NCBI GenBank assembly: GCA_016839445.1
Contig: JAEOUG010000154.1
Location: 1-58,146 of the forward strand
Length of the DNA stretch: 58,146 nt
Direction: 5' to 3'
Source: Candidatus Thorarchaeota archaeon
GTDB taxonomy: Archaea; Asgardarchaeota; Thorarchaeia; Thorarchaeales; Thorarchaeaceae
Shown here: positions 2,027 to 35,441 of the stretch, in pieces
Layout: each line of letters begins with the position of its first letter
How positions within the stretch are numbered: position 1 is the stretch's first letter
Made by a program: the position numbers and the translations under genes
Notes under the pieces: model-generated
What the model was told of the DNA's origin: nothing
Seen by the model: only the letters and a program-made list of their open reading frames with translations
Database searches by the model: none

Positions 2027-2988
2027 TAGGGCCTCACTTGGTGGCTCTCGGACACTGGATTCGACAGCAATTTGATGCTCATGAGGTTCAATTGCTTCAG
2101 CGTTTCTGAAGTCAACGGTCCATTCAGTGTTATCTTGAAGAGCTTGCCAACTCTCACTTCTGTGACATCCGCGAATCCCAGTCTGACTAGTGCCTTCCTA
2201 GTGATTTCTCCTGGAGGATTCCTGATGCCTGGCTTCGGCTCAACGATGACTTCAATTATTTCTCTTCTATCTGGGATCTCCTCTCCACGTGTCTTCATGA
2301 TTCTCTCGTTTAGTCTCCTGTATGAGTCAATCGGACTTCTAGGGGTTCTCGTGGACGTCTTCTTGCTCTTGCTGCCCATCTCGCTGTCCCAGACCGTCAT
2401 TGTGTCGTGGGAGATCTCGTCCGCGACGACGACTCTTTCACCATCAGCTATGCCAAACTCGAGCTTGAGGTCAGCAAGTTGAAGACTGGCCTGCGCAAGC
2501 AAAGCCGATAGATAGTAGTTGACCGAGGATGTTATGGAGAGCATCAAAGCTAGAGTCTGAGAATCCATGTGACCCAATAATACTGCAGACTCTCGTGTTA
2601 TCAGCAGATTTGGCTTCTCTCTGTCTTTCACGAAGAGCTCGATGACAGGCGACTCAAAGACCCGTCCTTTCTCAACTCCGTATCTCTCACAGAAAGAGCC
2701 TGCAGCCGCATTCCTGCAGACCACCATGATTGGAATGACATCCACTTTGCGGCAGAGAAGCTTCGGCCCTGACAGGGATTTGATGAGATGCGTGTCAATT
2801 CCCTTCCCCTCCAGGAACCCAAGCAAATGATACGAAAGGTCACAGGTCAGCTCTCCCTTCCCTGAAATCTCATCATTCTCATCCACGTTGTCACCCATAG
2901 CCGCATCAGTGAACTCGATGACAACTCTTTCCTCGCTCTCAGGATCCTGATATACCCGCTTTGACCTGCCTTCGCGAATGAGTCTCAT
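2026..2988 (-). CDS. purC-purS: SAICAR synthetase-like (PurC) domain fused to C-terminal PurS
   Basis: EGRSKRVY, CRNAAAGS, DLKLEFG, ADEIS (PurC); C-terminal VEPKPGIRNPPGEITRKAL...VRVGK...LLSNPV (PurS); ATG 2988 preceded by AAGGAGG. Confidence 0.85.
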   Translation of the reverse strand: MRLIREGRSKRVYQDPESEERVVIEFTDAAMGDNVDENDEISGKGELTCDLSYHLLGFLEGKGIDTHLIKSLSGPKLLCRKVDVIPIMVVCRNAAAGSFCERYGVEKGRVFESPVIELFVKDREKPNLLITRESAVLLGHMDSQTLALMLSITSSVNYYLSALLAQASLQLADLKLEFGIADGERVVVADEISHDTMTVWDSEMGSKSKKTSTRTPRSPIDSYRRLNERIMKTRGEEIPDRREIIEVIVEPKPGIRNPPGEITRKALVRLGFADVTEVRVGKLFKITLNGPLTSETLKQLNLMSIKLLSNPVSESHQVRP

Positions 2989-3248
2989 TCCCTGTCCTCC
3001 TTGAGCAAATGTAGAGGTCTCCTCCACGATGTCTTCCCTGGCGACCTTTCTCTTTCCACTGTATCAGGCAGTCCTTATGTCTCTGGAATCACTGTGTCCT
3101 CTCGGGGTGCGAGGAGCGTCTTCCTCCTAAGACAAGAGGGGCTACCCACTTGTATCAAAGGATAGCCAGAGAAGGCGCACTAATATGTTCTGGTGCTCCT
3201 TCAGAACGCCTCTGGCCTGTGATGATGGTCGTCTTTGAAGCTGCACTC

Positions 3249-3797
3249 TCACAGGAACTCTCTGAGAATCGTACCAATAACTGAGCCAAGCAAGGTGGCC
3301 AGCATCATCAGAATGAAGGGTACAATCGAGAGTGCTATGGCGCTCAGAATGAAGCCTCCTAGATCCAGTCCTGGGAACAGAATGGCTGGTGACCCCAGGA
3401 ACACGAAATAGAGCAGCAGGAAGAACAGCGACGCCAGAGCTCCACCGATTAGGGCCTTGCCAGTGTCTGCAGCAGTCAGGCCTATCGGGATAGCTGTTAG
3501 GGCAGGAATGAAGAACATGTACGTTGATGAGTTCTCAAGGACCCTCACAGTGACGAAGGAGTAGATCGACACGTTGATGAGTGCCGTGAGTAGCGGCAAG
3601 AGGATTAGCAGGACACGATCCCTTGTGTTCTCGTACATCTGAACGCCCAGGAGTTTCACAATGGGCTGAGGCCTATCTGGAGTCTTTCTAGGCTTCTTCT
3701 CCACTTCGGGGAGTGGCCTGAAGAGTCCCTTCTTCTCTTCCTTGTCCTCTTCGGGAGTTTCTACTCTTAGCTTCTCCTCATCTGACATAGTGCTCAC
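3249..3797 (-). CDS. Hypothetical membrane protein (about 4 TM, charged N-terminus)
   Basis: 182 aa ORF with four hydrophobic segments. Confidence 0.7.
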   Translation of the reverse strand: MSTMSDEEKLRVETPEEDKEEKKGLFRPLPEVEKKPRKTPDRPQPIVKLLGVQMYENTRDRVLLILLPLLTALINVSIYSFVTVRVLENSSTYMFFIPALTAIPIGLTAADTGKALIGGALASLFFLLLYFVFLGSPAILFPGLDLGGFILSAIALSIVPFILMMLATLLGSVIGTILREFL

Positions 3798-3910
3798 GGT
3801 GTTGTTGGCAGAGAGTCATTGAATAAATACTTCGCATCGCGCAAGGATGACTGCGTCGAACCGCAACGACTATCTGCGTTTCAGACATGCTACATTTCAG
3901 AGGATGGCCT

Positions 3911-5038
3911 ATGGTTGAGGAGACTCCTGTTGATTTCGACGAAGGCGAGGATGTGCTTGAGTCATCGCTGACAAGGCGAAGGAAGGTTGAGCACATCGAG
4001 ATATGCCTGGAAGAAGACGTTCAGTGCCGTCGGACAACGATGCTTGAGGACATCGAATTCGTGCACAACGCACTTCCCGAGATTGACAAAGACAAGATAG
4101 ATCTCACTTCGAACTTCTTCGGTTTCCGAGCATCAGCACCTCTGCTGATTGCGGGAATGACGGGAGGTCATCCCCGGACTAAGGGCATAAACGAGAAGCT
4201 GGCTGCGGCAGCTGAGGAGCTGGGTCTGCCTATCGGTGTTGGAAGCCAGAGAGCGGCAATTGAGGACCCGTCTCTTGAGGACACGTTCAGAGTCGTGAGA
4301 GAGACCGCCCCATCGGTTCCTATTCTGGCAAACATAGGAGCCACGCACGTCGACTATGCTGAGGATGCAGTTTCGATGATCGAAGCAGATCTCCTTGCTG
4401 TTCATCTTAATCCTCTTCAAGAGGCCATTCAGCCAGAGGGCGACTGCAATTCTATCGGCGTTGTTGACACCATAGCTGCAATCGTCGACTCCGTTGATGT
4501 TCCTGTCATAGTGAAAGAGACTGGAGCAGGGATTTCAGACGATGTTGCTCGCCGACTCGCAGAAGTGGGCGTGGACGGAGTGGACGTTGGAGGTGTCGGA
4601 GGCACTAGCTGGGCAGCTGTTGAATACTACCGGGCACTGAAGGAAGACAATGACCTGAAATCGCAGTTCGGTCTGGAATACTGGGACTGGGGCATCCCCA
4701 CGGCTCTCAGCGTCATTCTCGTCTTGAACTCCACGGAGCTTGATGTCATTGCCACAGGAGGAATCAGAACTGGTCTCGATGTGGCAAAAGCTCTGAGTCT
4801 TGGAGCTGTTGCGGCAGGAGTTGCTCTGCCGCTGCTTCGTCCATCGGTTCTTGGATCCTCATTGGACGTTGTCATGGAGCTGGAGCGCTTCATAGAGGGC
4901 TTGAAGGTGGCGATGTATCTCACTGGCAGTTCAACTGTCGATGACATCGCCTCAAAACCACTAATCCTGAAGGGAGAGCTTGTTGAGTCACTGAGGTCTC
5001 TGGGAATCGACTATAAGCGCGTAGCATCAGGCACCTAG
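3911..5038 (+). CDS. fni: Type 2 (FMN-dependent) isopentenyl-diphosphate delta-isomerase
   Basis: RKVEHI, HNALPE, GMTGG, VGSQR, HLNPLQE, VKETG, GGTSW, GGIRTG motifs. Confidence 0.95.
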   Translation: MVEETPVDFDEGEDVLESSLTRRRKVEHIEICLEEDVQCRRTTMLEDIEFVHNALPEIDKDKIDLTSNFFGFRASAPLLIAGMTGGHPRTKGINEKLAAAAEELGLPIGVGSQRAAIEDPSLEDTFRVVRETAPSVPILANIGATHVDYAEDAVSMIEADLLAVHLNPLQEAIQPEGDCNSIGVVDTIAAIVDSVDVPVIVKETGAGISDDVARRLAEVGVDGVDVGGVGGTSWAAVEYYRALKEDNDLKSQFGLEYWDWGIPTALSVILVLNSTELDVIATGGIRTGLDVAKALSLGAVAAGVALPLLRPSVLGSSLDVVMELERFIEGLKVAMYLTGSSTVDDIASKPLILKGELVESLRSLGIDYKRVASGT

Positions 5039-6441
5039 ACTACTCCGATTCTCTGGAGGTACTTCGAGCGACGTCGTATTCCGTTCAGCATCTGGACGGC
5101 TTCTTCAATCGTATCGCCGACAGGAATGCCGTTTATCTCGAACCCTCGTATGATGACTTCGTATTTCTCCAGATCTGGCACATATGAGACGACCGTCTTC
5201 TGGTGAGTCTTTGCCACGTTAGCCACGCGTGCTCCTATCTGAAGAGAGATGCCTGGAGCATATGGAAGCAGAAGCAGCAATGCTGCATCTATGTTCTCAA
5301 ACTCAAGCATCTTGTCAAGAACACGCTCATAGTCGACATCAGAGGCGCTGCCGGTCAGGTCGCACGGATTTCGGAACGAGGCAATCCCCTGATATGCAGG
5401 GGTCATCACCTCTCGCATGGTTTCCTGTTGCTCTCTGCTGAACCCGGGGAATACCAATCCGTAATGAGATGCCTCATCGCTCGCTATGACTCCATGGCCT
5501 CCACTTACAGTCAGTGTACCCACCCTAGGGCCCTTCATGGGTTTCGGCTTGAAGGAGAAGGCTTTCGCGTAGGCCATTACCTCATCCTCATCCACTGCTT
5601 GGATCACCCCGAACTGCCTGAATGCCGCCTCTGCCACAACTTGGTTACCTGCGAGAGAAGATGTGTGACTCTGTGTGGCTCGATGTCCGGCTTCGGACTC
5701 CCCACCCTTGAGGACAACGACTGGTTTCTTCGGCGCTATCTCCTTGCACGTTTCGACGAACCGTCGTCCCTCTCCTTCTCCAAACCCTTCGATGTATGCC
5801 AGAATCACGTCTACCTTCCTCTCGGAACCGAAGTGTCTGATGAAGTCATGAACCTTGGTCTGCGCGGCATTGCCTATCGATATGGCGGCTGCAATCCCTA
5901 CATCTCTCTGGGCGAACTCCTCGAGTCGCTCTATCAGCCAGCCGCCACTCTGCGAGATTATGGCCACATTACCTCTCCTAGGTCTGGCCACTCTCTCAGA
6001 GGGCAGGAAGAACGTGTCAAGGACATCTGGCACGAAGACACCAATGCAGTTGGGGCCCACCATTGTTATCCCGAATTCCTCGGCTATCTCCACGATTTCG
6101 CTCTGGAGGCTTGCGCCAGTGGCTCCCACCTCGCTGAACCCTCCTGAAACGACAACTACAGAGTGAATCCCCTTCTCTCCACATTCTCTTAGAACACCGG
6201 GGACGTACTTCGCAGGTACGGAGATGACAGCGAGCTCTATGCCATCCGGCGCCTCTGTGATGGACTTGCAGACGGGGACTCCTTCAACAACCCCTCCCTT
6301 GGGGTTTATCGGATAGGTTGGTAAAGCGTTCTCAAACCTGAGTTTCCTGAAGATCACGTTCCCCGGGCTAAACGGATTAGAAGTCGACACTCCCACAACC
6401 GCAGTGGCACTGGGATTAAGCATAGTCTTTAGGCCTGTCAT
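5035..6441 (-). CDS. ADP-forming acyl-CoA synthetase alpha-like subunit (CoA-binding + ligase domains)
   Basis: YPINPK, SGGFSE, GPNCIG, ISQSG, SHT phospho-His motif, NPCDLTG. Confidence 0.88.
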   Translation of the reverse strand: MTGLKTMLNPSATAVVGVSTSNPFSPGNVIFRKLRFENALPTYPINPKGGVVEGVPVCKSITEAPDGIELAVISVPAKYVPGVLRECGEKGIHSVVVVSGGFSEVGATGASLQSEIVEIAEEFGITMVGPNCIGVFVPDVLDTFFLPSERVARPRRGNVAIISQSGGWLIERLEEFAQRDVGIAAAISIGNAAQTKVHDFIRHFGSERKVDVILAYIEGFGEGEGRRFVETCKEIAPKKPVVVLKGGESEAGHRATQSHTSSLAGNQVVAEAAFRQFGVIQAVDEDEVMAYAKAFSFKPKPMKGPRVGTLTVSGGHGVIASDEASHYGLVFPGFSREQQETMREVMTPAYQGIASFRNPCDLTGSASDVDYERVLDKMLEFENIDAALLLLLPYAPGISLQIGARVANVAKTHQKTVVSYVPDLEKYEVIIRGFEINGIPVGDTIEEAVQMLNGIRRRSKYLQRIGVV

Positions 6442-6518
6442 GTCTCCGCCTCTGGCTTTGGCGTTCCTGCTCACAGCCCCTTATATGACCTGCGAAGGTG
6501 AATCTGCTTCGTCAGACA

Positions 6519-7574
6519 TCAGGGCTTCATCTGGGCTAGTATCTCTATCATTCGAGGTTCCGCCAGAATCGCGTGCTGGAGCTTGCAGAGCAACTTGGTG
6601 ATTTCTGCGTAGATGACCTGTCTTGGCTCGTCACTGGCCTTCTCTGCACTCTCGAGCGACTCGGCACACTGCTGGTTCAGCCTCTTGATAATTCTCTTCT
6701 CGAGTTCTGGTCCACCCCATCCAAAGCCATCAAAGGCAGTCTGCGCTTCGAGTATCTTCTCTTTGACACTCAGCTTCTCTTCCTTGAGCACTTTCTCGAG
6801 ACCCTGATAGTACTTTGCCACGGCACGCTCAATGCGTTCCATCTCCGACCCAGTAAGGTACGTTTCTTGCTGGCGTGTCTTCATCAGGTCCTGCAATAGA
6901 CGAGCCCCTGGGGCCTCCGTGAGAAGCCCCTTTGCTGTGGCCATAATCGTACGTGCAGGCAGCTCCATCACATCACCGATATAGGGTGAATCTGAGCGGT
7001 ACTTGTGAATCTCTCTGATAGTCTCGAGCCAGAAGGTCGGCATGAGCACGTGGCAGCGCTTTGAATACTGCTGGATGAGCCGCTGTGTCTGGCCAATAAG
7101 GCCGAACTGGTCATCTTCGACATCTACCTTCCTGAAGGCTTCAAGAGGTCTCGTAGGTTCGCCACCTACTAGAGGAATGATTTTCTCTCCTTCTGCGGAC
7201 TCTGAATCTCCGGGTGTCTGAGAAGGAATGTGCCCACCATCCAGGATCGAAAGTATCTCCTGCGCCGGATGGGTCTCAGCTCTCTTGGCCTTTTCAGAGA
7301 GTTTTGGCAGCAGAGACTCAATCTGTGAGAGCCTCTTCACAATCAGAGTCATGATGTTCTGAGTGGACGGAGGAATACCCTTCATGGCAGTAGCTTCTTC
7401 CATCCACTTACGAGTTCGAAGAAGCCCCTGGGTAAGAGAGTCTACACGGTCTGGGTCTACGCTCTCTTCGACCTGTGAACTCAGCAAGAAGTGAAGTAGA
7501 GTTGAGTTCAGCGTGACCATCAACAGAAGCCTGTCGATTAGGTCCTCGAATTGGAAGGAGGGAGCGTCAGACAT
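6519..7574 (-). CDS. Hypothetical alpha-helical protein, third gene of the tubulin-like operon
   Basis: 351 aa ORF starting 18 bp after the tubulin-like stop, GAGGTG SD-like motif. Confidence 0.8.
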   Translation of the reverse strand: MSDAPSFQFEDLIDRLLLMVTLNSTLLHFLLSSQVEESVDPDRVDSLTQGLLRTRKWMEEATAMKGIPPSTQNIMTLIVKRLSQIESLLPKLSEKAKRAETHPAQEILSILDGGHIPSQTPGDSESAEGEKIIPLVGGEPTRPLEAFRKVDVEDDQFGLIGQTQRLIQQYSKRCHVLMPTFWLETIREIHKYRSDSPYIGDVMELPARTIMATAKGLLTEAPGARLLQDLMKTRQQETYLTGSEMERIERAVAKYYQGLEKVLKEEKLSVKEKILEAQTAFDGFGWGGPELEKRIIKRLNQQCAESLESAEKASDEPRQVIYAEITKLLCKLQHAILAEPRMIEILAQMKP

Positions 7575-7592
7575 TGCGTCATCACACCTCGT

Positions 7593-8975
7593 TTACTCCA
7601 TGGTCTCCCCAGGTGTCATGTAGTAGCTGAACAGCTCTCTGAAGTCGTTGATGGCGTCCACGAGCTCCTTTCGGGAGGTTCCCTTAGAGCGCATGAACCA
7701 CCCCTGTTTCAGGGGCGATGCCCCACTGTGCAGATTCACGAGCTGTGTTGCTTCATTGATGATCTGTACAAGCTCGGGTATCTTCGGCAGTCCAAGAAGG
7801 AGTAGCAGGTCCGTAGACTCCTCTCCAGCGTGATACTGCACGTAGCATGGTGTTATCGCCGCACCAGGGGCAATGAACTTGTCAAGTGCTTCTTTCAGAT
7901 GCATGCCATACTCCGCTTTGGCTACGCTTCTCGGCCCGGACATCACGTAGTAGACGCTCTCCGCGTTGGGTTCCTCTCCGACATCGGCGTAGGAACACTC
8001 CCTGACTGCGTAGTCAATCATCTGCCTGAGCTGCTTGGGCATGCTTGCCTGATCCTGAATGAGACCGACATCTGCGTATAGCGCGGGAACGACCACTGGG
8101 TCAAGCTTGCGAGCATAGTCTGCTAGGTCGGTTGTTGGGAAGACATCCTTGTGGCTCTCCCACACACCCGGTGAGAGCATTGCCTCAACTACATCGAGGG
8201 CTAGAGGGTTCACCAGTTCTACAAACGCCTGCTCAGTCCTCGACTCACCGTCTGCGGTTTCATCTATTGTGGACGGGACATTCTTCTGGATTGAGTCGAT
8301 GTCTGCGATATCCACATTCAGTTCCTGCTGGAGATAGTCGACGCTATCTGATCTTCTCCACTGAAGAATACGCTTCAGCATCGTCCTATTGCTTAGTAGT
8401 ATTGTAAGGTCTGCACCCCTCTCCTGAAGCTGTGCTCTCAGTAACTTTGAGACAGCCCAGATTGAGTTCAAAGCCTCACTGGACTGCCCCTCAAAGGGCA
8501 GTACGCCTATTACGTAGACAAAGATCCGTCGGCCCTCTTCTTCCTGGAATCTCTGCTTGAGTAGGTCAATCAATGCAGGCGTTCCGCCGCAACCTGTGCC
8601 GCCCCCAAGGCTAGTGAATATGCAGAAGCCTGACACTCCTTCAAAGCCCAGGTTGCTCAATTGGTCGAAGATGATGTCCTTTGACTCCATGATGGCGTTA
8701 TAGCCGTCCATGAAGCGCCCGCCGACACCAATCTCGCTTGCACCATAGAGGAGGGTGTGTTCCTTCGGTATCTCATACTTCTGGCGTACCTTGGTGAGGT
8801 CTGCTCTGTCTGTATTAATGAGCAGGTAACCTCTGACTCTTGACGGAAGTCTCTTGTCGTGGCTTCTCTTCAGGTAGGATCCTACGATGTTTGAACCACA
8901 CTCGCCAATACCTATGGCGAAGACCTCAGCCGCCTTGGTTGTATCGTCGACTTCTACTGGATTTCCTCTTAGCAT
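7593..8975 (-). CDS. Tubulin/FtsZ/CetZ-superfamily GTPase (divergent)
   Basis: T1 GIGECGSNI, T2 LINTD, T3 GVGG, T4 signature SLGGGTGCG, T5 VLPF, T7-like TTDLADY. Confidence 0.92.
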   Translation of the reverse strand: MLRGNPVEVDDTTKAAEVFAIGIGECGSNIVGSYLKRSHDKRLPSRVRGYLLINTDRADLTKVRQKYEIPKEHTLLYGASEIGVGGRFMDGYNAIMESKDIIFDQLSNLGFEGVSGFCIFTSLGGGTGCGGTPALIDLLKQRFQEEEGRRIFVYVIGVLPFEGQSSEALNSIWAVSKLLRAQLQERGADLTILLSNRTMLKRILQWRRSDSVDYLQQELNVDIADIDSIQKNVPSTIDETADGESRTEQAFVELVNPLALDVVEAMLSPGVWESHKDVFPTTDLADYARKLDPVVVPALYADVGLIQDQASMPKQLRQMIDYAVRECSYADVGEEPNAESVYYVMSGPRSVAKAEYGMHLKEALDKFIAPGAAITPCYVQYHAGEESTDLLLLLGLPKIPELVQIINEATQLVNLHSGASPLKQGWFMRSKGTSRKELVDAINDFRELFSYYMTPGETME

Positions 8976-8987
8976 TGGTAGTATCTC

Positions 8988-11681
8988 CTAAGCTTTCCCT
9001 CTGGTATCAACCATTGTCTGGGCCAGTTCTCTGATAGCCCAGACCAAGTAGGAACTGATGTCCTCTCTGCTGTACGTTTCCTTGATTTGTCTGATCTTGT
9101 CATCGATGAACTTGTCGCGTTCTTCGACCCGGGATGAAGGACTGAACCCGGTCATGTACATCCTGAGCGACTTGTGCCAGTCGTCCATTGCTACAGCCTT
9201 GTCAAGCCACTTGCCCCTCATATCTTCCAGCTCGTGGAAGCAGGATATGGCCTTGGGCAGCGACTCTGCCTTCTTCAGGTCGGCTGCAAGTGTGTTCATC
9301 CGCTTGACATCAAAGACGATCTTGCTGAAGTCATCAGAGTGTCTCTCGATGACGCGTTCTATGGTAGAGAAGTACTGACTCTTCTTCTTCAGCTGCGCGC
9401 TGTAATCCTGTGCGCTCTTGTCCGCAATACCCTTGATGACATCTAGCATTTCTTCCTGGATACTTGCCAACGTGAGGCATACATCCAGCGCTTCGTTCAC
9501 ATGCGGGGTGTCCGTCTGCAGCTTCATGGGTACTTGGTCAAGCAGCACCTTGAGCCTCTCTACGAACTCCGACATCCCTTGATCCTCAAAGAGCTGCACA
9601 GCGTCCTTGATCTGCTCATAGGCTTCGTCAACACGGTCTCTGATCTTCTTGTGGACCTTCTTGGAGGTCGTGAGGCTCTCGAGCTTGTCGAATGCATCCG
9701 CAGCCTCCTCCAGTTCGCTGGGAGGATTCTTCTGCAAGTCATGGAGCATGTCGAGTTCTTTCTCCACCTTCACGCCAATGCTCTTGGCCTTCTCAAGAGA
9801 TGTGACCAGTGAGTCCACCTCGACCTTGAGCTGTTCGATGACCTTGGAAGAGATCTTCTTCTCGTAAATCTCTATCATCTTCCTGGCAATTGCGGGTAGA
9901 CTGAACACATTCTCCGCTGCAACTCCCACACTGTTCAGCTCGCTTATGGCCTCCTGTACGTCTGGAGGTATCTCGACGCCTGCGCCCATAAGCTTGGCAG
10001 CCGCGAGCCGAATCTTCACACCCAGGCGATAACGCAGGTTCTCAAGGGAGTCCTTGGCCTTCGCCAGAATGGACTCCTTTATCGATCGCATCTCTGACTT
10101 AATCTCAGAGAAGTCGTCCATCTTCTGAATGCGCTCTGAACCCTCGTCTAGGCTCACTACAATAGGCATGAAGATCTCGGCATACGCCGGTTTGATTGTC
10201 TGCAGGTCCATTACAATGGCGTCTATTTCCTGCTGACATGCATCTCTGAATGTGGCTACACCGCTCTCAACGGCTTCACGAAGTGTCTTCAGAGACTCGA
10301 GAAGGAAGACCACTCCTCCCTCCATCTCTTCCACCTTCGGCGCTTTCTTGCTCAGTTGTGCGTGATCCAATACCCTGTCTGCTGAGGTGGCCAGCTCATT
10401 GAACCTTGTGATGTAATTGCGGATGGAATCTTTGATTACGCGACGGTGATTGTCATCCATTGCCTTGGCCTTGAGGTAGATGCGGACCATCTCGTCCACG
10501 TCAGCTTCCTTTAGGCTCTTCTTCGACTCTGTAATGAACTTCCGGACCGCAGAAACGTCCTTTATGCCAGCGTCATCTGCGAAATCGAGTGCCTTCTCAA
10601 CATCATCTAGCAGCTCAAAGACTTGCTCTCTGAGGGCGATCTTGACCTGTCCTTCCCATTCGACCATTAGCTGGTAGCTGGACAGGAGTCCTGCAATGCC
10701 CTCTCCCTCTACAGAAACCGTTGGGGGGGTTGGAATCACGTCGGAGGTAGTCGGAATCCCTCCGTCAACGATCTTCTGTGTCACCTCGTGCTTGATGTTG
10801 ATAATCTTGTCACGAAGCATGTTGGCCATTTTGACCTTGGCGGAGTGGAGTTGATTCTCTAGGCTGACCAGCTCGGTCAGCGTCTGAGCCTTCGAGCCAT
10901 CTCTCGCCAGTATACGAAGCTGCTGTGTGAACTCCATCGGGAGTTCAAGACCAAGCCTTGAGGAGGTCTCCACCGAAGCCTGCAATGATTCGGTGTCGCT
11001 CACGAGCGAGTTGCTGAGCATCCGACTGACTTCGTCCTTCCTGCCATCGAGATACTCCCTATCCGTCATCAGCTTGTCATTCAAGATTGTGAGGTCTTTC
11101 AGGGACATGCCCGCCACTTCTTCTGTGGCCACAGTTGTAGCCACCTCACTCTTGTCGATTGTAATGTGCCTCTCGTACGTATCTACTGTGGCTTTGTTCT
11201 CATCAAGGACTCCCTTTACCTCTCTGGCGAAGTCCTCGTAGACTACCAGATATTGCTTCGAAAACGCTTTCGCGAAGTCATATAGCTTTGAGAAGTCTTG
11301 AAGGTCTCCTGCACCAATCCCTGGGAAGTTGATAGCGGCAATGGCCTTCGTTTCTGCAGGCTTCAGTTCCTGTATCTTAGGAACAATGGCCAGAGCATCC
11401 TTGTGCTCTTTTCTGAAGTGCTCGGCGAAGTCGCGAGTGGCCCTCATGAAGTCATCTTCGAGTTCACTTGAGGTCTTATCGACCTCCGTCTGAACCTTCC
11501 TCTTTTTCATGAAACCTGCTGATGTCAGGTCGTTCTCAAGCTTGCTTAGATTAGCAAAGATATCGTAAAGGTGACGTACTTGACGATTGGCTTGCTCCTC
11601 CATCGTAGGATTGACTGATGTGAGAATACCCTTGAGTTCAGCAAACCTATCCAGTTCGCGTCGCCATCCATGGCTGTCCAT
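8988..11681 (-). CDS. Large alpha-helical/coiled-coil protein (about 897 aa), first gene of the tubulin-like operon
   Basis: Long ORF rich in E/K/L/A with heptad-like periodicity; ATG 11681 preceded by GGAGGT; 12 bp gap to tubulin-like gene. Confidence 0.85.
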   Translation of the reverse strand: MDSHGWRRELDRFAELKGILTSVNPTMEEQANRQVRHLYDIFANLSKLENDLTSAGFMKKRKVQTEVDKTSSELEDDFMRATRDFAEHFRKEHKDALAIVPKIQELKPAETKAIAAINFPGIGAGDLQDFSKLYDFAKAFSKQYLVVYEDFAREVKGVLDENKATVDTYERHITIDKSEVATTVATEEVAGMSLKDLTILNDKLMTDREYLDGRKDEVSRMLSNSLVSDTESLQASVETSSRLGLELPMEFTQQLRILARDGSKAQTLTELVSLENQLHSAKVKMANMLRDKIINIKHEVTQKIVDGGIPTTSDVIPTPPTVSVEGEGIAGLLSSYQLMVEWEGQVKIALREQVFELLDDVEKALDFADDAGIKDVSAVRKFITESKKSLKEADVDEMVRIYLKAKAMDDNHRRVIKDSIRNYITRFNELATSADRVLDHAQLSKKAPKVEEMEGGVVFLLESLKTLREAVESGVATFRDACQQEIDAIVMDLQTIKPAYAEIFMPIVVSLDEGSERIQKMDDFSEIKSEMRSIKESILAKAKDSLENLRYRLGVKIRLAAAKLMGAGVEIPPDVQEAISELNSVGVAAENVFSLPAIARKMIEIYEKKISSKVIEQLKVEVDSLVTSLEKAKSIGVKVEKELDMLHDLQKNPPSELEEAADAFDKLESLTTSKKVHKKIRDRVDEAYEQIKDAVQLFEDQGMSEFVERLKVLLDQVPMKLQTDTPHVNEALDVCLTLASIQEEMLDVIKGIADKSAQDYSAQLKKKSQYFSTIERVIERHSDDFSKIVFDVKRMNTLAADLKKAESLPKAISCFHELEDMRGKWLDKAVAMDDWHKSLRMYMTGFSPSSRVEERDKFIDDKIRQIKETYSREDISSYLVWAIRELAQTMVDTRGKA

Positions 11682-11893
11682 AAGACCTACCTCCGTCTGG
11701 TGTGGCTGTGAATTCCTAGTATGTCTTAAGTTCTTTTTCTGTCGGTCCTCCCTTTTCAAAGAATGTGCTACGTATTGAACCATCTCGACGGGCTCTGACA
11801 TTCTGGAGGCGAAATCTTGTGCAGAGGGAAACTGCCTTAAGGACTCCTCCTGCCACTAACCCAACTAATGCCTCCCCCTGAGGCGATAGACCG

Positions 11894-13786
11894 ATGGAAG
11901 GTAGTAATGATTCTGCTCACGTCAGCTACGAGACCGTCACCAAGCTCGATGTCGATGCCATTGACCTAGCCTACGATGATCGGTTCCTCTATGCGGCCTG
12001 TAGAGACCAGAGGGTCCGGGTCTGGTCAAAGGAGAGCTGGCAGCTCGTGGCTGAGCTCGGAGAGACTGCAACCGAGCCGCTCGCAGTCGATGTAGACGAA
12101 ACGCAGGTCTACGCAACTTGTGAGAAGAGAGTCTACGTGTGGAACAAGGAATCATGGGGCATGATGGGATGGTTTGAGCTGTCCTATCAAGCCGTGGCGG
12201 CTACTCTTTACGGTGACTACTTCTTCGTCGGAGCAAGAGATGGCCGGCTTGTGTCGATTCAAAAAGACCCACCCCACGACACTAACAGCTGGCAATTGCA
12301 TAAGTCTGACATCACGAGTCTCTGGTCTGATGACAGGATAATCTGTACGAGTACGCGTAAGGAGGAGCCAAGGGTGTGGCTCAAGGCAAAGGATGCTGCC
12401 CCCTCCGAGCTGGCCCGTTTGGACATGAAGGGCAAGAGCGGGGTTGTGTCGGGGAACAGCGAGTTCGTTCTGGTCGGTACGGGATCGGGAGAGATTGAGG
12501 TATATGATAGAGTTGAATACAAACTTGTGAAGACATTGGAGCCAGAGAAATCACAGCCGGTTCACTCACTCTGGGTTAGCAATTACTACCTCGTCTCAGC
12601 GTCAGCTAATGGCACCCTTGTGCTCTGGGATCTTAAGCTGGGAGAGGAGGTGGGGGCCGTTGCTCTTGAAGGGCAGAGAGTCCAGTGGGTCAACGCTGAC
12701 CACGACCTTCTCTACGTGGCAACCAGCGGAGGTATCTTTGTCATTCGGCTGGTTGCAGGAGGGAGGCCGCTGGATGTCTGCTCAGAGGGGCCTGTTCTGT
12801 GGAAAGACAGCCTGCTGAAGACCTCTCCCTATGATGTTCTGGAAAGCGCAATCCAACTCGAGAAGCGGGGCGATGAATGCTATCAAGATGGCGTCTTTCA
12901 TGAAGCCGTCAAGGAGTATGAGAACGCTTTGCAGCTGCTCATCGACAACACACATGCTCTTCTTGAAGTTCCAGAGGAACGGCAGATGCTGACCGATGAA
13001 CTCAATGATAAGCTCGGAAAGGCGCTTCTGCGGTCAAAGATGGAAGAGATCAGCGTTCTGAGTCACGACATCCGGCAGTTGTCAGAGGAGCTCGAAGTCA
13101 AGAAGCGGACCGACATGGAGCCTGAAGAGGTCGAGAATCTCTGGGCATCGGCAGGCAGAGCTATCAAGGAGAGCAGGGTTCTTTCAGAAGCCCAGGCCAG
13201 TGACATGCTCAGCTACCAGCTAACCAACCTTGTTGACTCTCTAGACCAGGAACTTCAACGAGCCATGGACAGATACACAGACTTCCGCGAGACCATCAAT
13301 CAGGCCTTGGCCCTCACGCGACGTATCTCCAATGAATGGAGATGGATGGAAAGGAAGCGGACAACGCTCAATGAGCGGCGGGACTATCTTCGGGGCGCAA
13401 TGGACAAACTGGCCGAGGCCCTGAAAGACTCGGAAGAAGACAGCGAAGTCCACAAGGTTCTCTCAGGAGCTCTCGAGGAGTACAGGCGGCTCCACTCGCA
13501 AATCGAGAGAATAGTGAAATCTCGTGATGATGATTCTGCTGGCACAACACTGGAGAAGGAAGAAGCCAGAGAAGTCATTGAAGGGCTGCTCAATGTCCTG
13601 CCGAAGAGGATAGCCGCATGCAGGGCTATCAAAGATGAAAGACAGAGAGAACTCGAACTCGGCCGGATTCTCTCGGCGCTGGATGAAGCAATGGAGACTG
13701 CATCATCGTTCAAGATGTCGAAAGAGAAGGACGCCATTGAGAAGTTCATGAATGATTTGAAGCCCGAGCCCGGCCAGGGCGCCTAG
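11894..13786 (+). CDS. WD40-like beta-propeller + MIT/TPR-like helices + coiled coil
   Basis: Repeats such as LYAACRDQRVRVWS, HKSDITSLWSD, LVSASANGTLVLWDL; then AIQLEKRGDECYQDGVFHEAVKEYENALQL and a long helical tail. Confidence 0.8.
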   Translation: MEGSNDSAHVSYETVTKLDVDAIDLAYDDRFLYAACRDQRVRVWSKESWQLVAELGETATEPLAVDVDETQVYATCEKRVYVWNKESWGMMGWFELSYQAVAATLYGDYFFVGARDGRLVSIQKDPPHDTNSWQLHKSDITSLWSDDRIICTSTRKEEPRVWLKAKDAAPSELARLDMKGKSGVVSGNSEFVLVGTGSGEIEVYDRVEYKLVKTLEPEKSQPVHSLWVSNYYLVSASANGTLVLWDLKLGEEVGAVALEGQRVQWVNADHDLLYVATSGGIFVIRLVAGGRPLDVCSEGPVLWKDSLLKTSPYDVLESAIQLEKRGDECYQDGVFHEAVKEYENALQLLIDNTHALLEVPEERQMLTDELNDKLGKALLRSKMEEISVLSHDIRQLSEELEVKKRTDMEPEEVENLWASAGRAIKESRVLSEAQASDMLSYQLTNLVDSLDQELQRAMDRYTDFRETINQALALTRRISNEWRWMERKRTTLNERRDYLRGAMDKLAEALKDSEEDSEVHKVLSGALEEYRRLHSQIERIVKSRDDDSAGTTLEKEEAREVIEGLLNVLPKRIAACRAIKDERQRELELGRILSALDEAMETASSFKMSKEKDAIEKFMNDLKPEPGQGA

Positions 13787-14412
13787 CTGGCCACAATTCC
13801 GTCTAGAAAGGGGTAGTCTTCCTCGAGTTCTTCGTCTCTCACGAGGTCCAGCCACTCGTCTGCCAGGATTGAGAGTGAAGGATCTAGAGACACCGCGTAT
13901 TCAGCTGCCTCGATGGCTGAACCATAGTCATCAAAGACTAGGTGGCACACTGCAAGATTGTACCACGAGATTGCAGAATTGGGATTCAGATCAAGCGACT
14001 TCTGAATCGCGTCAATAGCTTCCTCCCACTCCTCCTCGGCAATCAGAGCCGTAGCTAGCAGTTCCCACTCTCTAATCTTCTTCGGATGGATTCTCAGGCC
14101 TTCACGAAGTGCGCCAATACCCTCCGCATTCTCGTTGAGCAGGAGATGAAGGTAACCCTTGTCCGTCCATAGTGTGGAGGAGCTTGGATCGATTCTGACC
14201 AGATTGTCTAGGGCCTCGATTGCCATTCTTCCATTTCCGAGTTCAAGATTGCAGGACACGATTCCTTCCCAAGCTCTCACGCTCTTTGGGTCGAAGCCAA
14301 GACCTCTTCTGTACTCGCGGATGGCCTCCAGATAGCGCTTCTTCTTCTGGAGGTCTCTAGCCTGCTCTAGGCAAGTATCCGCTCCATCACAAGCGCTCCG
14401 AGGTGCTCTCAT
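13783..14412 (-). CDS. Tetratricopeptide repeat protein
   Basis: About 4-5 TPR units (AIREYRRGLGFDP, AIDAIQKSLDLNPNSAISWYNLA). Confidence 0.88.
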   Translation of the reverse strand: MRAPRSACDGADTCLEQARDLQKKKRYLEAIREYRRGLGFDPKSVRAWEGIVSCNLELGNGRMAIEALDNLVRIDPSSSTLWTDKGYLHLLLNENAEGIGALREGLRIHPKKIREWELLATALIAEEEWEEAIDAIQKSLDLNPNSAISWYNLAVCHLVFDDYGSAIEAAEYAVSLDPSLSILADEWLDLVRDEELEEDYPFLDGIVAS

Positions 14413-15152
14413 TCAATCCTGCTCCGTATACTCATATGGTTCTCGTATGGAGCTGTCCGGCAGGCGAACCAAGAAAAAGCTTGTTCTGAAAGCATTGATT
14501 GCGAGTTGTCTCTTTCGTGGGATTGCATGGAGGAAATCGCCCTTCCCACCTCGACTCGAATCACATTGGTGACACACTGAGGGCCCGCACCTGGCGGGTC
14601 GGGGTCCGTGGTAGCATTGGCGTCTGCATTTGAGTACAGACCATCTTCAGGGAGAAACATCAGCCTGAACCCTTCTGAGTAACTAGGCACAAGGTCACCC
14701 TCGAAACCGAAAGCTATCACCATGTCACCTTGGAGGTCATAGTAGCTCTGGTTCGGATAGACCTTCGAGTACGGGAATGTCTGATTGTAGCCGTCCAGCG
14801 CAATGACTGTTACGTTGTCAGACTCAGCCATCCCTCCGACCAGGTCCACTAGGTCCGAGACCCTGACTCCCTGGTATGTTCCGTTTCCTCCAATGTTCCC
14901 TAGGCGATTCTGGTATGCACCCAAACGGGTGATGACGTCCCCCTGTAGCATTTCTTGGAGAGTCACGTTCACCTCTGACTCTCCTACTAGCATGACTGCT
15001 GGCGGGTCTGGGGGGTCTACTTGGAGGTCTTGGAGTATGGAAATAGCTACAAGAACTCCTCCCGAAACGAGCAAGACCCCGAGGAGGAACCCGTAGAGCA
15101 TCTTCTGTCCTGAGTCCAAGTGAATCAGTCCTCGATATGAAAGGCGAAACAC
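14409..15152 (-). CDS. Membrane-anchored exported protein, possible molybdopterin-oxidoreductase-like fold
   Basis: N-terminal TM; YQGVRVSDLVDLVG...VIALDGY pattern; N-x-S/T sequons. Confidence 0.55.
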   Translation of the reverse strand: MFRLSYRGLIHLDSGQKMLYGFLLGVLLVSGGVLVAISILQDLQVDPPDPPAVMLVGESEVNVTLQEMLQGDVITRLGAYQNRLGNIGGNGTYQGVRVSDLVDLVGGMAESDNVTVIALDGYNQTFPYSKVYPNQSYYDLQGDMVIAFGFEGDLVPSYSEGFRLMFLPEDGLYSNADANATTDPDPPGAGPQCVTNVIRVEVGRAISSMQSHERDNSQSMLSEQAFSWFACRTAPYENHMSIRSRIE

Positions 15153-35364: not shown

Positions 35365-35441
35365 TGCTCTCGAAATCTCTATATCAATTGCTTGCGATAT
35401 TCTTCCGGGAACCTCGGTTCTCGCTTGGTGAGGTGTATCGC

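What the first reader, a model, noticed from the sequence alone, without database searches (positions are those of the whole stretch)
11894..14412. WD40 propeller + MIT/TPR-like + coiled-coil protein divergent from the tubulin operon, abutting a TPR gene
Seen: ~290 aa of WD40-like blades, then VLESAIQLEKRGDECYQDGVFHEAVKEYENALQLL (MIT/TPR-type helical hairpin), then ~270 aa of coiled coil. It shares a ~210 bp divergent intergenic region with the tubulin operon, and its stop overlaps a convergent TPR gene. Known: beta-propeller + alpha-helical architecture typifies proto-coatomer proteins, while WD40 and MIT modules occur in microtubule and ESCRT regulators (katanin, spastin, Vps4). Inference: possibly an adaptor of the same system, linking filament to membrane trafficking.
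Basis: partly seen in the sequence, partly recalled or inferred. Interest (0 to 1): 0.7.

Follow-up and report, generated by a model that had tools for sequence, protein, structure and literature searches.

The report
Thorarchaeal WD40 propeller with helical rod
This gene encodes an uncharacterised scaffold protein (a seven-bladed WD40 propeller joined to a rod of helical bundles) that occurs in only one family of Asgard archaea and always sits next to a tubulin-like operon, but nothing yet shows that the two work together.

Summary
ORF 11894-13786 (+, 630 aa) encodes a seven-bladed WD40 propeller, a linker with an invariant SLLKTSPYDVLE motif, one TPR-like helical hairpin and about 270 aa of long helices. 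It faces a coiled-coil / tubulin-like / helical operon across 212 bp, and its stop overlaps a convergent TPR gene.

- The hairpin scores below the Pfam cut-offs for both TPR and MIT.
- The "coiled coil" models as about four successive three-helix bundles. They look spectrin-like, but the Z scores lie within helical noise.
- The ESCRT genes lie on other contigs.

The rod domain is an orphan. It gave 21 clusters among 1.84 billion representative proteins, and it occurs in 65 of 400 Asgard genomes, all from one family.

In 46 of 46 genomes where both genes share a contig, they are neighbours. This is weak evidence, because the whole about 12-kb block, including metabolic-looking genes, keeps its order across the family. 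The gene was gained once beside an older operon and lost at least twice. In addition, 49 genomes of other families have the tubulin-like gene without it.

Best guess (about 0.4): a dispensable, lineage-specific adaptor of the tubulin-like module. Nearly as likely: an unrelated scaffold that is a neighbour by descent. Earlier notes of this scan reached the same reading of this family on other genomes.

The parts
11894..13786 (+). WD40-rod gene, 630 aa, net charge -36, no signal peptide or membrane helix seen by eye
   Evidence: ORF. Full-length homologues of 613-681 aa at 57-88% identity. Net charge.
11921..12763 (+). Seven-bladed WD40 beta-propeller (aa 10-290). Blades 2-5 are the best conserved part of the protein.
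   Evidence: Pfam hits. 28 strands in the model. Foldseek hits to WD40 propellers. Majority fraction per alignment column is 0.80-0.87 for blades 2-5 against 0.67 for blades 6-7.
12809..12844 (+). Invariant SLLKTSPYDVLE motif (aa 306-317) at the junction of the flexible linker and the first helix
   Evidence: L307-E317 are invariant in 29 of 29 aligned homologues and S306 is nearly so. T, S, P, Y, D, V, L and E stay at least 90% conserved when members of 36-49% identity are added. Model pLDDT is below 50 for aa 302-309.
12827..12946 (+). Single TPR-like helical hairpin (aa 312-351), the first two helices of the first bundle
   Evidence: H312-331 and H335-351. TPR_11 E 0.0028, 17.7 bits, below the cut-off of 26.8; MIT E 0.089, 13.3 bits, below 30. 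Designed consensus TPR proteins at E 0.012-0.37.
12947..13759 (+). Helical rod (aa 352-622): long helices of 21-50 aa that the model packs into about three further three-helix bundles. This is an orphan domain.
   Evidence: Model of aa 296-630 with pLDDT 88.2. VIA-align hits to spectrin repeats and the GAT domain at Z 10.2-11.8. Only 21 representative clusters in 1.84 billion proteins.
11682..11893 (.). Divergent intergenic region with two back-to-back promoter-like boxes. CTTAAG at 11725-11730 serves the operon (- strand). CTTAAG at 11836-11841 lies 58 nt before the WD40 start (+ strand).
   Evidence: Sequence. Alignment of 13 genomes. Operon-side box aligned with TTTAAT/TTAAAT-type boxes of other genera. 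13 genera compared. CTTAAG occurs only 6 times in the window against about 13 expected.
13783..14412 (-). Convergent TPR gene (209 aa). Its start overlaps by 4 nt the end of the upstream molybdopterin-oxidoreductase-like gene (14409..15152).
   Evidence: The gene keeps this place in genomes with and without the WD40 gene.
8988..11681 (-). First gene of the neighbouring operon: all-helical protein of about 897 aa counted from the conserved start (937 aa in the longest ORF)
   Evidence: No Pfam family reaches its cut-off.
7593..8975 (-). Tubulin/FtsZ-superfamily GTPase, CetZ-like ('Asg.Tub'-type)
   Evidence: PF00091 at E 1.2e-19. Best solved relatives are 4b46 (E 6e-10) and 3zid (E 1.9e-07). 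84-91% identical across the family.
6519..7574 (-). Third gene of the operon: 351-aa protein without a Pfam family
   Evidence: It follows the tubulin-like gene in every locus whose stretch reaches past that gene (12 of the 13 loci; the twelve loci).

Best explanation
The gene encodes a soluble, acidic scaffold protein invented in one family of Thorarchaeia.

Shown, or modelled with good confidence:
- A canonical seven-bladed WD40 propeller (aa 10-290).
- A short flexible linker carrying the invariant motif SLLKTSPYDVLE.
- A rod of about four consecutive three-helix bundles (aa 312-622). The first bundle starts with a single TPR-like hairpin.

Shown by comparison of genomes:
- The gene was inserted once, in the opposite orientation, between a TPR gene and the promoter of an older three-gene operon (helical protein, tubulin/CetZ-like GTPase, small helical protein).
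- It has been inherited vertically at that spot.
- It was lost at least twice while the operon stayed.

Inferred mechanism:
- It acts as a dispensable, lineage-specific adaptor or cross-linker of the tubulin-like module.
- The conserved blades 2-5 of the propeller, perhaps with the linker motif, dock one partner.
- The rod acts as a rigid spacer or as a second binding or self-association surface.
- Expression comes from a promoter set back to back with the operon's promoter.

The partner has not been identified. The link to the filament is inference from position only.
For: Architecture.

Conservation pattern. Blades 2-5 score 0.80-0.87 and helices 352-487 score 0.77-0.81, against 0.63 for the last bundle. 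The linker motif is invariant. This points to conserved contacts.

Position. In 46 of the 65 genomes of the class with the rod domain, the tubulin-like gene is on the same contig. In all 46 it is the neighbour. Spacings worked out by hand from the tables are 3.80-3.95 kb in 43 genomes, 4.37 kb in one, and 6.1-6.2 kb in two. Three more genomes have the gene next to the first operon gene, with a contig break before the tubulin-like gene. No genome shows the gene elsewhere on a contig that holds the operon.

Promoters. Both genes have a purine-rich stretch followed by a YTTAAR box at matching distances in 13 genera. The exact word CTTAAG occurs 6 times in 58 kb, and two of these are in this 212-bp spacer.

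Inheritance. The WD40 tree shares its supported groups with the operon tree: (g16,g20), (g17,g22,g27), and g1 near g25. This fits vertical co-inheritance.

Kind of protein. A propeller plus a rod is a structural or scaffolding type, and it sits beside a cytoskeleton-type operon.
Against: Conserved adjacency is what this family shows in any case. The whole block keeps its order across genera. The block is a carbamate-kinase-like gene, a RidA-like gene, a molybdopterin-oxidoreductase-like gene, the TPR gene, (WD40), the helical-protein gene, the tubulin-like gene, the small helical-protein gene and a CoA-ligase-like gene. The first, second and last names are by eye and were not tested. So the adjacency says little.

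The operon works without the gene:
- It is missing from G001 (97% complete, same genus), from genus g23 (0 of 4 genomes), from g28 (0 of 3 genomes, 96-99% complete) and from the sister family. In G001, G061, G092 and G094 the TPR gene lies directly before the operon.
- Outside the family, 49 genomes have the tubulin-like gene and 0 of 314 genomes have the rod domain.

Other points:
- It evolves about twice as fast as the operon's helical proteins and far faster than the GTPase. Identity to the window across genera is 43-52%, against 55-67% and 84-87%.
- In G075 and G077 a 2.3-2.5-kb insert with a TBP gene separates the two promoters without loss of either gene.
- The rod shows no homology to the operon's helical proteins (hhalign probability 0.1-0.2%).
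- The protein is strongly acidic (net charge -36). That is unlike classic basic microtubule binders (recalled knowledge, not tested).
Confidence: 0.4

Rival explanations
1. Neighbour by descent only. The protein is a general WD40 scaffold for a process unrelated to the tubulin-like operon, for example assembly of another complex or substrate recruitment for a modification or degradation system. It landed once in an intergenic gap of a block whose order is frozen in this family.
For: - The whole block is syntenic, including metabolic-looking genes.
- The gene was gained once and lost twice with the operon kept.
- It is absent from all 49 genomes of other families that carry the tubulin-like gene.
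- It diverges at the rate of the unrelated TPR neighbour, with mean pairwise distance 0.53 against 0.55.
- A TBP-gene insert between the promoters is tolerated.
- The best structural matches of the propeller are generic WD40 domains of many functions.
Against: - It has never been seen away from the operon on a contig that holds both genes (0 of 46).
- The divergent promoters have similar boxes.
- A structural rod protein next to a filament operon is a suggestive pairing.
Confidence: 0.4
2. An MIT/TPR module reads ESCRT-III-type tails or the tubulin C-terminus, and the propeller plus helical region act like a proto-coatomer, so the protein links the filament to membrane trafficking.
For: - The first three helices form a bundle of MIT size.
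- One second-look match is chain C of the calpain-7:IST1 complex: 8uc6_C, Z 8.8, rmsd 9.5 A, 125 aligned, model residues 15-184. That this chain is the tandem MIT region of calpain-7 is my recollection, not a tool result.
Against: - The MIT profile scores 13.3 bits against a cut-off of 30, below the weak TPR_11 score.
- The genome-wide MIT search finds only a locus on C104, beside a Snf7 gene, and Snf7 genes lie only on C68 and C104.
- Z 8.8 is inside the noise that the tool states for helical bundles.
- The tail is not a solenoid.
- No membrane-binding element was seen, and the protein has net charge -36.
Confidence: 0.05
3. The rod drives self-assembly. The protein forms its own oligomeric lattice or membrane-skeleton-like network, with spectrin-like bundles joined end to end and propellers as nodes, independent of the tubulin-like filament.
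For: - Spectrin repeats are the commonest family among the fold matches. Examples are 1s35_A (Z 11.2, rmsd 5.5 A, 161 aligned) and 1u4q_B (three repeats, Z 10.2, 233 aligned).
- The long connecting helices (44 and 50 aa) span two bundles each, as in spectrin.
- Some orthologues carry a polybasic C-terminal tail that could bind acidic lipids (G077; P0128).
Against: - All Z scores are under the level of about 13 that the tool gives as noise for helical bundles.
- No Pfam spectrin family was listed at E up to 10.
- The polybasic tail is missing from the window's protein and from most of the genus.
- Self-association was not tested.
Confidence: 0.1

Closest known systems
Canonical WD40-repeat scaffold proteins (solved examples: beta-TrCP, Fbw7/Cdc4, LIS1, KIF21A WD domain, PRL1, a Thermomonospora WD40 domain)
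   Same: Seven four-stranded blades. Foldseek E 2.6e-19 to 8e-15, TMt up to 0.82. PF00400 scores above its cut-off.
   Different: Identity is only 11-18%, with no orthology to any of them. The C-terminal partner domain is unique to this family.
Spectrin-repeat rods (alpha/beta-spectrin, plectin plakin domain, nesprin) and other three-helix bundles (GGA1 and Tom1 GAT domains)
   Same: The model shows successive three-helix bundles joined by continuous long helices. VIA-align Z is 10.2-11.8, with up to 233-252 residues aligned to three-repeat fragments.
   Different: The Z scores are below the tool's noise level for helical bundles. Identity is 6-12%. No spectrin Pfam match was found. This shows a shared arrangement, not shown kinship.
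MIT domains (Pfam PF04212; Vps4/CdvC, calpain-7, spastin, katanin p60; the last three names are recalled)
   Same: A short N-terminal three-helix unit that starts with a TPR-like hairpin. One weak second-look match to the calpain-7:IST1 entry.
   Different: The profile score is 13.3 bits against a cut-off of 30. There is no ESCRT neighbourhood. The third helix runs on for 44 residues into the next bundle.
Coronin, and WD40 proteins that work with microtubules such as EML and katanin p80 (architectures recalled, not tested here beyond Pfam)
   Same: The domain order is a propeller followed by a helical or coiled-coil region, in proteins that attach to cytoskeletal filaments. This is the functional analogy behind the best explanation.
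   Different: The Pfam hits to EML propeller models score far below their cut-offs (31.7 bits against 90, and 20.7 against 88.2) and are generic WD40 cross-hits. No coronin or katanin-p80 family appears among the families listed (the best 25 of 27) or. This suggests an independent invention in one archaeal family.
The same protein family as described earlier in this scan on other genomes (note e1-5639600), and the 'Asg.Tub' CetZ-like group of Santana-Molina et al. 2023 (PMC9871819; passages read) for the neighbouring GTPase
   Same: The paper describes Asgard CetZ-like paralogues whose neighbours are unknown coiled-coil genes.
   Different: This report adds the gain and loss history, the phylum-wide counts, the frozen-block caveat and the promoter comparison. 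Whether the window's GTPase is one of the paper's Asg.Tub sequences could not be checked, because its supplementary data were not seen. The paper does not contain the term WD40 (0 occurrences).

Membership tests
WD40-repeat beta-propeller | Repeats recognised by the WD40 profile above its curated cut-off | tested here: met
   PF00400 scores 35.5 bits against a cut-off of 27. Many WD40-propeller models match at E down to 2.4e-12.
WD40-repeat beta-propeller | Closed propeller of four-stranded blades (usually seven) | tested here: met
   28 strands at aa 10-288 with pLDDT about 83-94. Foldseek TMt is 0.78-0.82 to 7-bladed WD40 domains.
TPR repeat proteins | A TPR profile above its curated cut-off | tested here: not met
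   TPR_11 scores 17.7 bits against 26.8 and TPR_2 scores 13 bits against 27. Designed consensus TPRs match only at E 0.012-0.37.
TPR repeat proteins | Tandem array of helical hairpins forming a superhelix | tested here: not met
   There is one hairpin only (H312-331, H335-351), followed by helices of 44, 24 and 50 aa. Foldseek to TPR proteins gives E of 0.012 or worse and TM of 0.22 or less.
MIT domain (PF04212) | The MIT profile above its curated cut-off | tested here: not met
   13.3 bits against a cut-off of 30, E 0.089. The six-frame genome search with PF04212 lists only C104:1541-1717.
MIT domain (PF04212) | Asymmetric three-helix bundle of about 70-80 aa | tested here: inconclusive
   The first three helices can form such a bundle in the model. 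The only MIT-related match is 8uc6_C at Z 8.8 and rmsd 9.5 A, which is within helical noise.
MIT domain (PF04212) | Binds MIM motifs of ESCRT-III tails | not testable with these tools
   This needs peptide-binding assays.
Spectrin repeat | A spectrin profile match | tested here: not met
   No spectrin family was listed for aa 296-630 at E up to 10. HMMER's filters may hide very weak matches.
Spectrin repeat | Three-helix bundles of about 106 aa in series, joined by continuous helices | tested here: inconclusive
   Z 10.2-11.4 to two- and three-repeat spectrin fragments. This is under the tool's noise level of about 13 for helical bundles.
Proto-coatomer architecture (beta-propeller + alpha-solenoid) | N-terminal beta-propeller | tested here: met
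Proto-coatomer architecture (beta-propeller + alpha-solenoid) | C-terminal alpha-solenoid of stacked short helical hairpins | tested here: not met
   The helices are 21-50 aa long and fold into bundles. The best Foldseek TMq to solenoid or TPR proteins is 0.24 or less.
Component of the tubulin-like (Asg.Tub-type) three-gene module | Adjacent to the module wherever both occur | tested here: met
   46 of 46 genomes with both genes on one contig. The whole block is also syntenic.
Component of the tubulin-like (Asg.Tub-type) three-gene module | Co-occurs with the module across lineages | tested here: not met
   The rod domain is in 0 of 314 genomes outside family f1, while 49 of them have the tubulin-like gene. 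Inside f1 it is missing from G001, g23 and g28, which keep the operon.
Component of the tubulin-like (Asg.Tub-type) three-gene module | Physically binds a module protein | not testable with these tools
   Complex prediction never accepted the job and was then declared unavailable.

The most novel reading that the evidence does not exclude
One family of Asgard archaea independently invented a filament-associated protein. A WD40 propeller on a spectrin-like rod would dock onto, space or cross-link filaments of the CetZ-like 'Asg.Tub' GTPase. That would be an archaeal counterpart of eukaryotic filament-binding propeller proteins, made from an orphan rod domain and recruited to an older three-gene cytoskeletal module.
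Probability: 0.3. Interest if true: 0.7.

Novelty: new variant of a known kind. Interest (0 to 1): 0.35.

Why it matters
Asgard archaea are the closest known relatives of eukaryotes, and their cytoskeletal modules bear on how the eukaryotic cytoskeleton and its many accessory proteins arose. The neighbouring tubulin-like operon is named in print, but I found no bench study of it. If the WD40-rod protein binds that filament, it would be a first example of a lineage-specific accessory protein for an archaeal tubulin-like system. It would also give a handle (a soluble, well-folding bait) for pulling the system out of enrichment cultures. If it does not bind, it is one more of the many lineage-specific WD40 scaffolds of Asgard archaea, and only of local interest.

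Tried and rejected
Co-folding. I tried to co-fold the WD40-rod protein (aa 8-548, alignment A1) with the tubulin-like protein (aa 16-460, alignment A3). The job was never accepted. One search gave no usable answer, and declared the tool unavailable. Nothing was folded.

Expression. No RNA holder was listed for window 6500-14500.

Protein atlas. For aa 296-630 the best score was 0.84, below the lead level.

Homology of the rod to the operon's own helical proteins. hhalign gave probability 0.1% against the 937-aa protein and 0.2% against the 351-aa protein.

Context of the most divergent family member (P0128). Scans of genome contigs and metagenome contigs found no relative.

Intergenic region. 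Rfam found no match at 11500-12000. Two of my promoter patterns matched nothing in the window, because their spacing did not fit the window's own boxes.

Mirror-tree style check. Distance correlations of the WD40 protein with each neighbour were 0.08 to 0.52, and 0.45 with the unrelated TPR gene. With 11 taxa in a near-star tree this is uninformative.

Tails of the tubulin-like protein. Tails read SYYM.PG..E in the lineages with the gene (and in G001, which lost it recently) and differ in g28, g23 and f2. This is confounded with phylogeny and was not used.

Fold lists. No MIT entry other than 8uc6, and no coatomer, clathrin or nucleoporin solenoid, stood out. This does not exclude those families.

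Rejected readings. ESCRT link, proto-coatomer, and a classic two-stranded coiled coil.

Literature. Searches for Asgard + WD40 + Thorarchaeota (4 papers by listing, one passage read), Thorarchaeota + tubulin + Asgard (12 listed), and Asgard/FtsZ/CetZ/tubulin superfamily (53 held the terms, 15 listed) turned up no description of this WD40 family. Supplementary files of papers were not seen.
Full report
WHAT IS THERE

The window is contig C131 of a 2.9-Mb, 190-contig genome (89.8% complete). The closest homologues of the gene carry source names of Thorarchaeota-type Asgard archaea.

The gene and its neighbours:
- ORF 11894..13786 (+) encodes 630 aa.
- Its stop interlocks with that of a convergent 209-aa TPR gene at 13783..14412 (-). 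The ORFs overlap by 4 nt, and TPR_2 matches at E 2.3e-20.
- Upstream and divergent lies a three-gene operon on the minus strand. It holds a 937-aa all-helical ORF (8988..11801), a 460-aa tubulin/FtsZ-family GTPase (7593..8975) and a 351-aa protein without a Pfam family (6519..7574).
- The GTPase matches PF00091 at E 1.2e-19. Its best solved relatives are 4b46 (E 6e-10) and 3zid (E 1.9e-07). I recall both as CetZ structures.
- The helical gene's conserved start is the residue-41 methionine of the longest ORF. Relatives align from there, most use TTG, and GGAGGT lies 7 nt upstream. Upstream similarity in relatives is broken by stop codons.

ARCHITECTURE

An AlphaFold2 model built on 29 homologues has mean pLDDT 85.1 and pTM 0.50.
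- It shows 28 strands between aa 10 and 288, that is seven four-stranded blades.
- A low-confidence linker follows (aa 302-309).
- Helices then run from aa 312 to 622.

Foldseek with the whole model returns only canonical WD40 propellers: beta-TrCP at E 2.6e-19, and LIS1, KIF21A, PRL1 and a bacterial WD40 domain at TMt 0.78-0.82.

A second model of aa 296-630 alone used 25 sequences reaching down to 36% identity. It has pLDDT 88.2 and pTM 0.62, with helices of 20, 17, 44, 24, 50, 21, 31, 23, 24 and 14 residues.
- Foldseek finds nothing below E 0.012.
- The exhaustive VIA-align search puts three-helix bundles on top. These include the GGA1 GAT domain (Z 11.8), two-repeat spectrin fragments (1u5p Z 11.4; 1s35 Z 11.2, rmsd 5.5 A, 161 aligned, model residues 11-176) and three-repeat fragments (1u4q Z 10.2, 233 aligned, model residues 12-257).
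- By the tool's own note, Z under about 13 for helical bundles may mean only a common arrangement.

I therefore describe the tail as a rod of about four consecutive three-helix bundles that looks spectrin-like. I do not claim kinship with spectrin.

- It scores TPR_11 at 17.7 bits (cut-off 26.8) and MIT at 13.3 bits (cut-off 30).
- It matches designed consensus TPR proteins at E 0.012-0.37.
- It is a single TPR-like hairpin and not a demonstrable member of either family.

Conservation and charge:
- Between propeller and rod lies the motif SLLKTSPYDVLE. L307-E317 are invariant in 29 of 29 sequences, and most positions stay at least 90% conserved when distant members are added.
- Conservation is highest in blades 2-5 (0.80-0.87) and in helices 352-487 (0.77-0.81). 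It is lowest in the last bundle (0.63).
- The protein has net charge -36.

DISTRIBUTION

- The full protein has 223 relatives at E up to 0.001 among 8000 scored candidates. The 120 best listed are 613-681 aa long, 57-88% identical apart from the window's own protein, and unnamed or generically named.
- The rod alone (aa 296-630), scored against 1.84 billion representative proteins, finds only 21 clusters. Four of them are full-length members of 634-656 aa. The rest (71-480 aa) look like fragments, apart from a 285-aa protein with a different N-terminal half.
- Among 400 genomes of the phylum (85 genera), the rod occurs in 65 genomes. All are in family f1, and none of the 314 genomes of other families has it.
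- The tubulin-like gene occurs in 124 of the same 400 genomes, in 26 genera and nine families. So 49 genomes outside f1 have it without the WD40-rod gene.

LINKAGE, AND WHY IT IS WEAK EVIDENCE

In the class (87 genomes), 65 have the rod domain and 77 have the tubulin-like gene.
- In 46 of the 65 genomes both genes lie on one contig. In all 46 they are neighbours in the same divergent arrangement.
- I worked out the spacings by hand from the tables: 3.80-3.95 kb in 43 genomes, 4.37 kb in G052, and 6.1-6.2 kb in G075 and G077.
- In G075 and G077 a 2.3-2.5-kb insert with a TBP gene (PF00352, E 1.1e-51) sits between the two genes.
- Three more genomes (G008, G009, G019) have the WD40 gene next to the first operon gene, with a contig break before the GTPase.
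- In the other 16 the genes are on different contigs, or the GTPase was not found. I checked only one of these (G078), where the WD40 gene runs into the contig end.

Against this, tblastn of nine window proteins on 13 loci shows that the whole block keeps its order across the family.
- The block is a carbamate-kinase-like gene, a RidA-like gene, a molybdopterin-oxidoreductase-like gene, the TPR gene, (WD40), the helical-protein gene, the GTPase gene, the small helical-protein gene and a CoA-ligase-like gene. The first, second and last names are by eye and untested.
- All of these genes lie on one strand except the WD40 gene.

Conserved adjacency is therefore the expectation here for any gene in the block.

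GAIN AND LOSSES

- In G001 (same genus, 97% complete), G061 (genus g23), and G092 and G094 (genus g28, 98-99% complete), the TPR gene lies directly upstream of the operon on the same strand, with no WD40 gene.
- G053 (genus g21) has the gene, cut by its contig end. So 14 of the 17 genera in the class have it.
- I built a maximum-likelihood tree of the three operon proteins concatenated (21 rows, IQ-TREE quick search, LG+G4, SH-aLRT support, rooted on another family).
- In that tree g28 is the first branch within f1 (support 100). All 15 rows with the gene fall in one clade (support 98), together with two nested rows without it (G061 and G001).
- The fewest changes are three, which I read as one gain and two losses.
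- The WD40 tree shares the supported groups of the operon tree, so inheritance was vertical.
- Outside f1 the operon's upstream neighbours are unrelated: nucleotidyltransferase-like genes, peptidases, a transposase with a Ras-like GTPase, and an unknown gene.
- Identity to the window across genera is 84-87% for the GTPase, 55-63% and 55-67% for its two partners, 43-52% for the WD40-rod protein and 41-52% for the TPR protein.

PROMOTERS

- In the spacer the operon side carries a YTTAAR box preceded by a purine-rich stretch. The box reads CTTAAG in this genus and TTTAAT or TTAAAT in others.
- The WD40 side carries GAAAnnnnCTTAAG-like sequence 55-65 nt before the start codon. The pattern holds in 13 genera.
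- CTTAAG occurs 6 times in the window against about 13 expected. Two of the six are these boxes, 111 bp apart.
- A block of about 45 nt next to the operon's box is almost invariant in the genus. It is also present in G001, which lacks the WD40 gene, so it belongs to the operon.
- This is compatible with co-regulation but does not show it.

READINGS REJECTED

- ESCRT or MIT link. The profile scores are below cut-off. The genome's only MIT-profile match (28.5 bits, just under the cut-off) and the Snf7 genes lie on contigs C104 and C68. The only MIT-related fold match (8uc6_C, Z 8.8, rmsd 9.5 A) is within noise.
- Proto-coatomer. The tail is not a solenoid.
- Homology of the rod to the operon's helical proteins. 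None was found.

MECHANISM AND ODDS

Shown:
- The fold classes.
- The orphan status of the rod.
- The single insertion beside an older operon, vertical inheritance and dispensability.

Inferred:
- The conserved propeller face and the linker motif dock a partner.
- The rod spaces or cross-links.
- The partner is the neighbouring filament module.

I put the adaptor reading at about 0.4, 'neighbour by descent only' at about 0.4, a self-assembling lattice at 0.1, and the ESCRT or coat reading at 0.05.

The decisive computation, co-folding with controls, could not be run. The tool's queue was full from then on and the tool was declared unavailable. No RNA run holding the locus was listed.

PRINT AND EARLIER NOTES

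Santana-Molina et al. 2023 (PMC9871819; passages read) name an Asgard CetZ-like group 'Asg.Tub' whose neighbours are unknown coiled-coil genes. The paper does not contain the term WD40 (0 occurrences). I could not confirm from sequence that the window's GTPase is in their set, because the supplements were not seen.

My three literature searches found no description of this WD40 family.

Earlier notes of this scan on other genomes had already read the family as a propeller with a single TPR-like unit and a rod of three-helix bundles. They also called the WD40 gene a local neighbour within Thorarchaeaceae. My tests agree with both readings. They add the phylum-wide counts, the gain and loss history and the frozen-block caveat.

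Noticed in passing
window 11731-11775 (between the two promoter boxes, next to the operon's box): A block of about 45 nt is almost invariant in the 12 aligned genomes of the genus. It is more conserved than the flanking coding DNA and is also present in G001, which lacks the WD40 gene. It lies inside the longest ORF of the helical gene, but relatives have stop codons there, so it is non-coding. It may be a regulator site of the tubulin-like operon. Rfam finds nothing.
   Followed up: partly
window 11681-11801: The longest ORF of the 937-aa helical gene starts 40 codons too early. The conserved start is at 11681 (ATG here, TTG in most relatives), with GGAGGT 7 nt upstream.
   Followed up: yes
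L019 (G077) 2837-5393 and L020 (G075), between the WD40 gene and the operon: One subgroup of genus g25 carries a 2.3-2.5-kb insert with a TATA-binding-protein gene (161 aa; PF00352, E 1.1e-51) and a 138-aa ORF without a Pfam family, exactly in the divergent spacer.
   Followed up: partly
window 13783-15152: The start of the TPR gene overlaps by 4 nt the end of the upstream 247-aa gene. That gene has a weak molybdopterin-oxidoreductase match and an N-terminal hydrophobic stretch. The TPR gene is therefore probably co-transcribed with that gene rather than tied to the WD40 gene.
   Followed up: no
L019:878-2836 (G077) and protein P0128: Some orthologues of the WD40-rod protein end in a polybasic tail (runs of K and R). 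This tail is absent from the window's protein and from most of its genus.
   Followed up: no
L021 (G073:C1:512000-528000): In this single-contig genome only the last 234 or so residues of the large helical gene are found upstream of the GTPase, and no WD40 or TPR gene lies in the 12 kb before it. This may be a rearrangement or an assembly join.
   Followed up: no
G047:C11:37656-39133: The tubulin-like gene of this genome matches in two pieces (residues 2-359 and 356-457). This may be a frameshift or a sequencing error.
   Followed up: no
window 47557-48789 (-): A 410-aa protein has a Ras/Roc-type small GTPase domain at aa 226-404 and an N-terminal extension of about 225 aa without a Pfam match.
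   Followed up: no
window 35364-38015 (+): An 883-aa protein combines a C25 (gingipain-type) peptidase domain with FG-GAP repeats.
   Followed up: no
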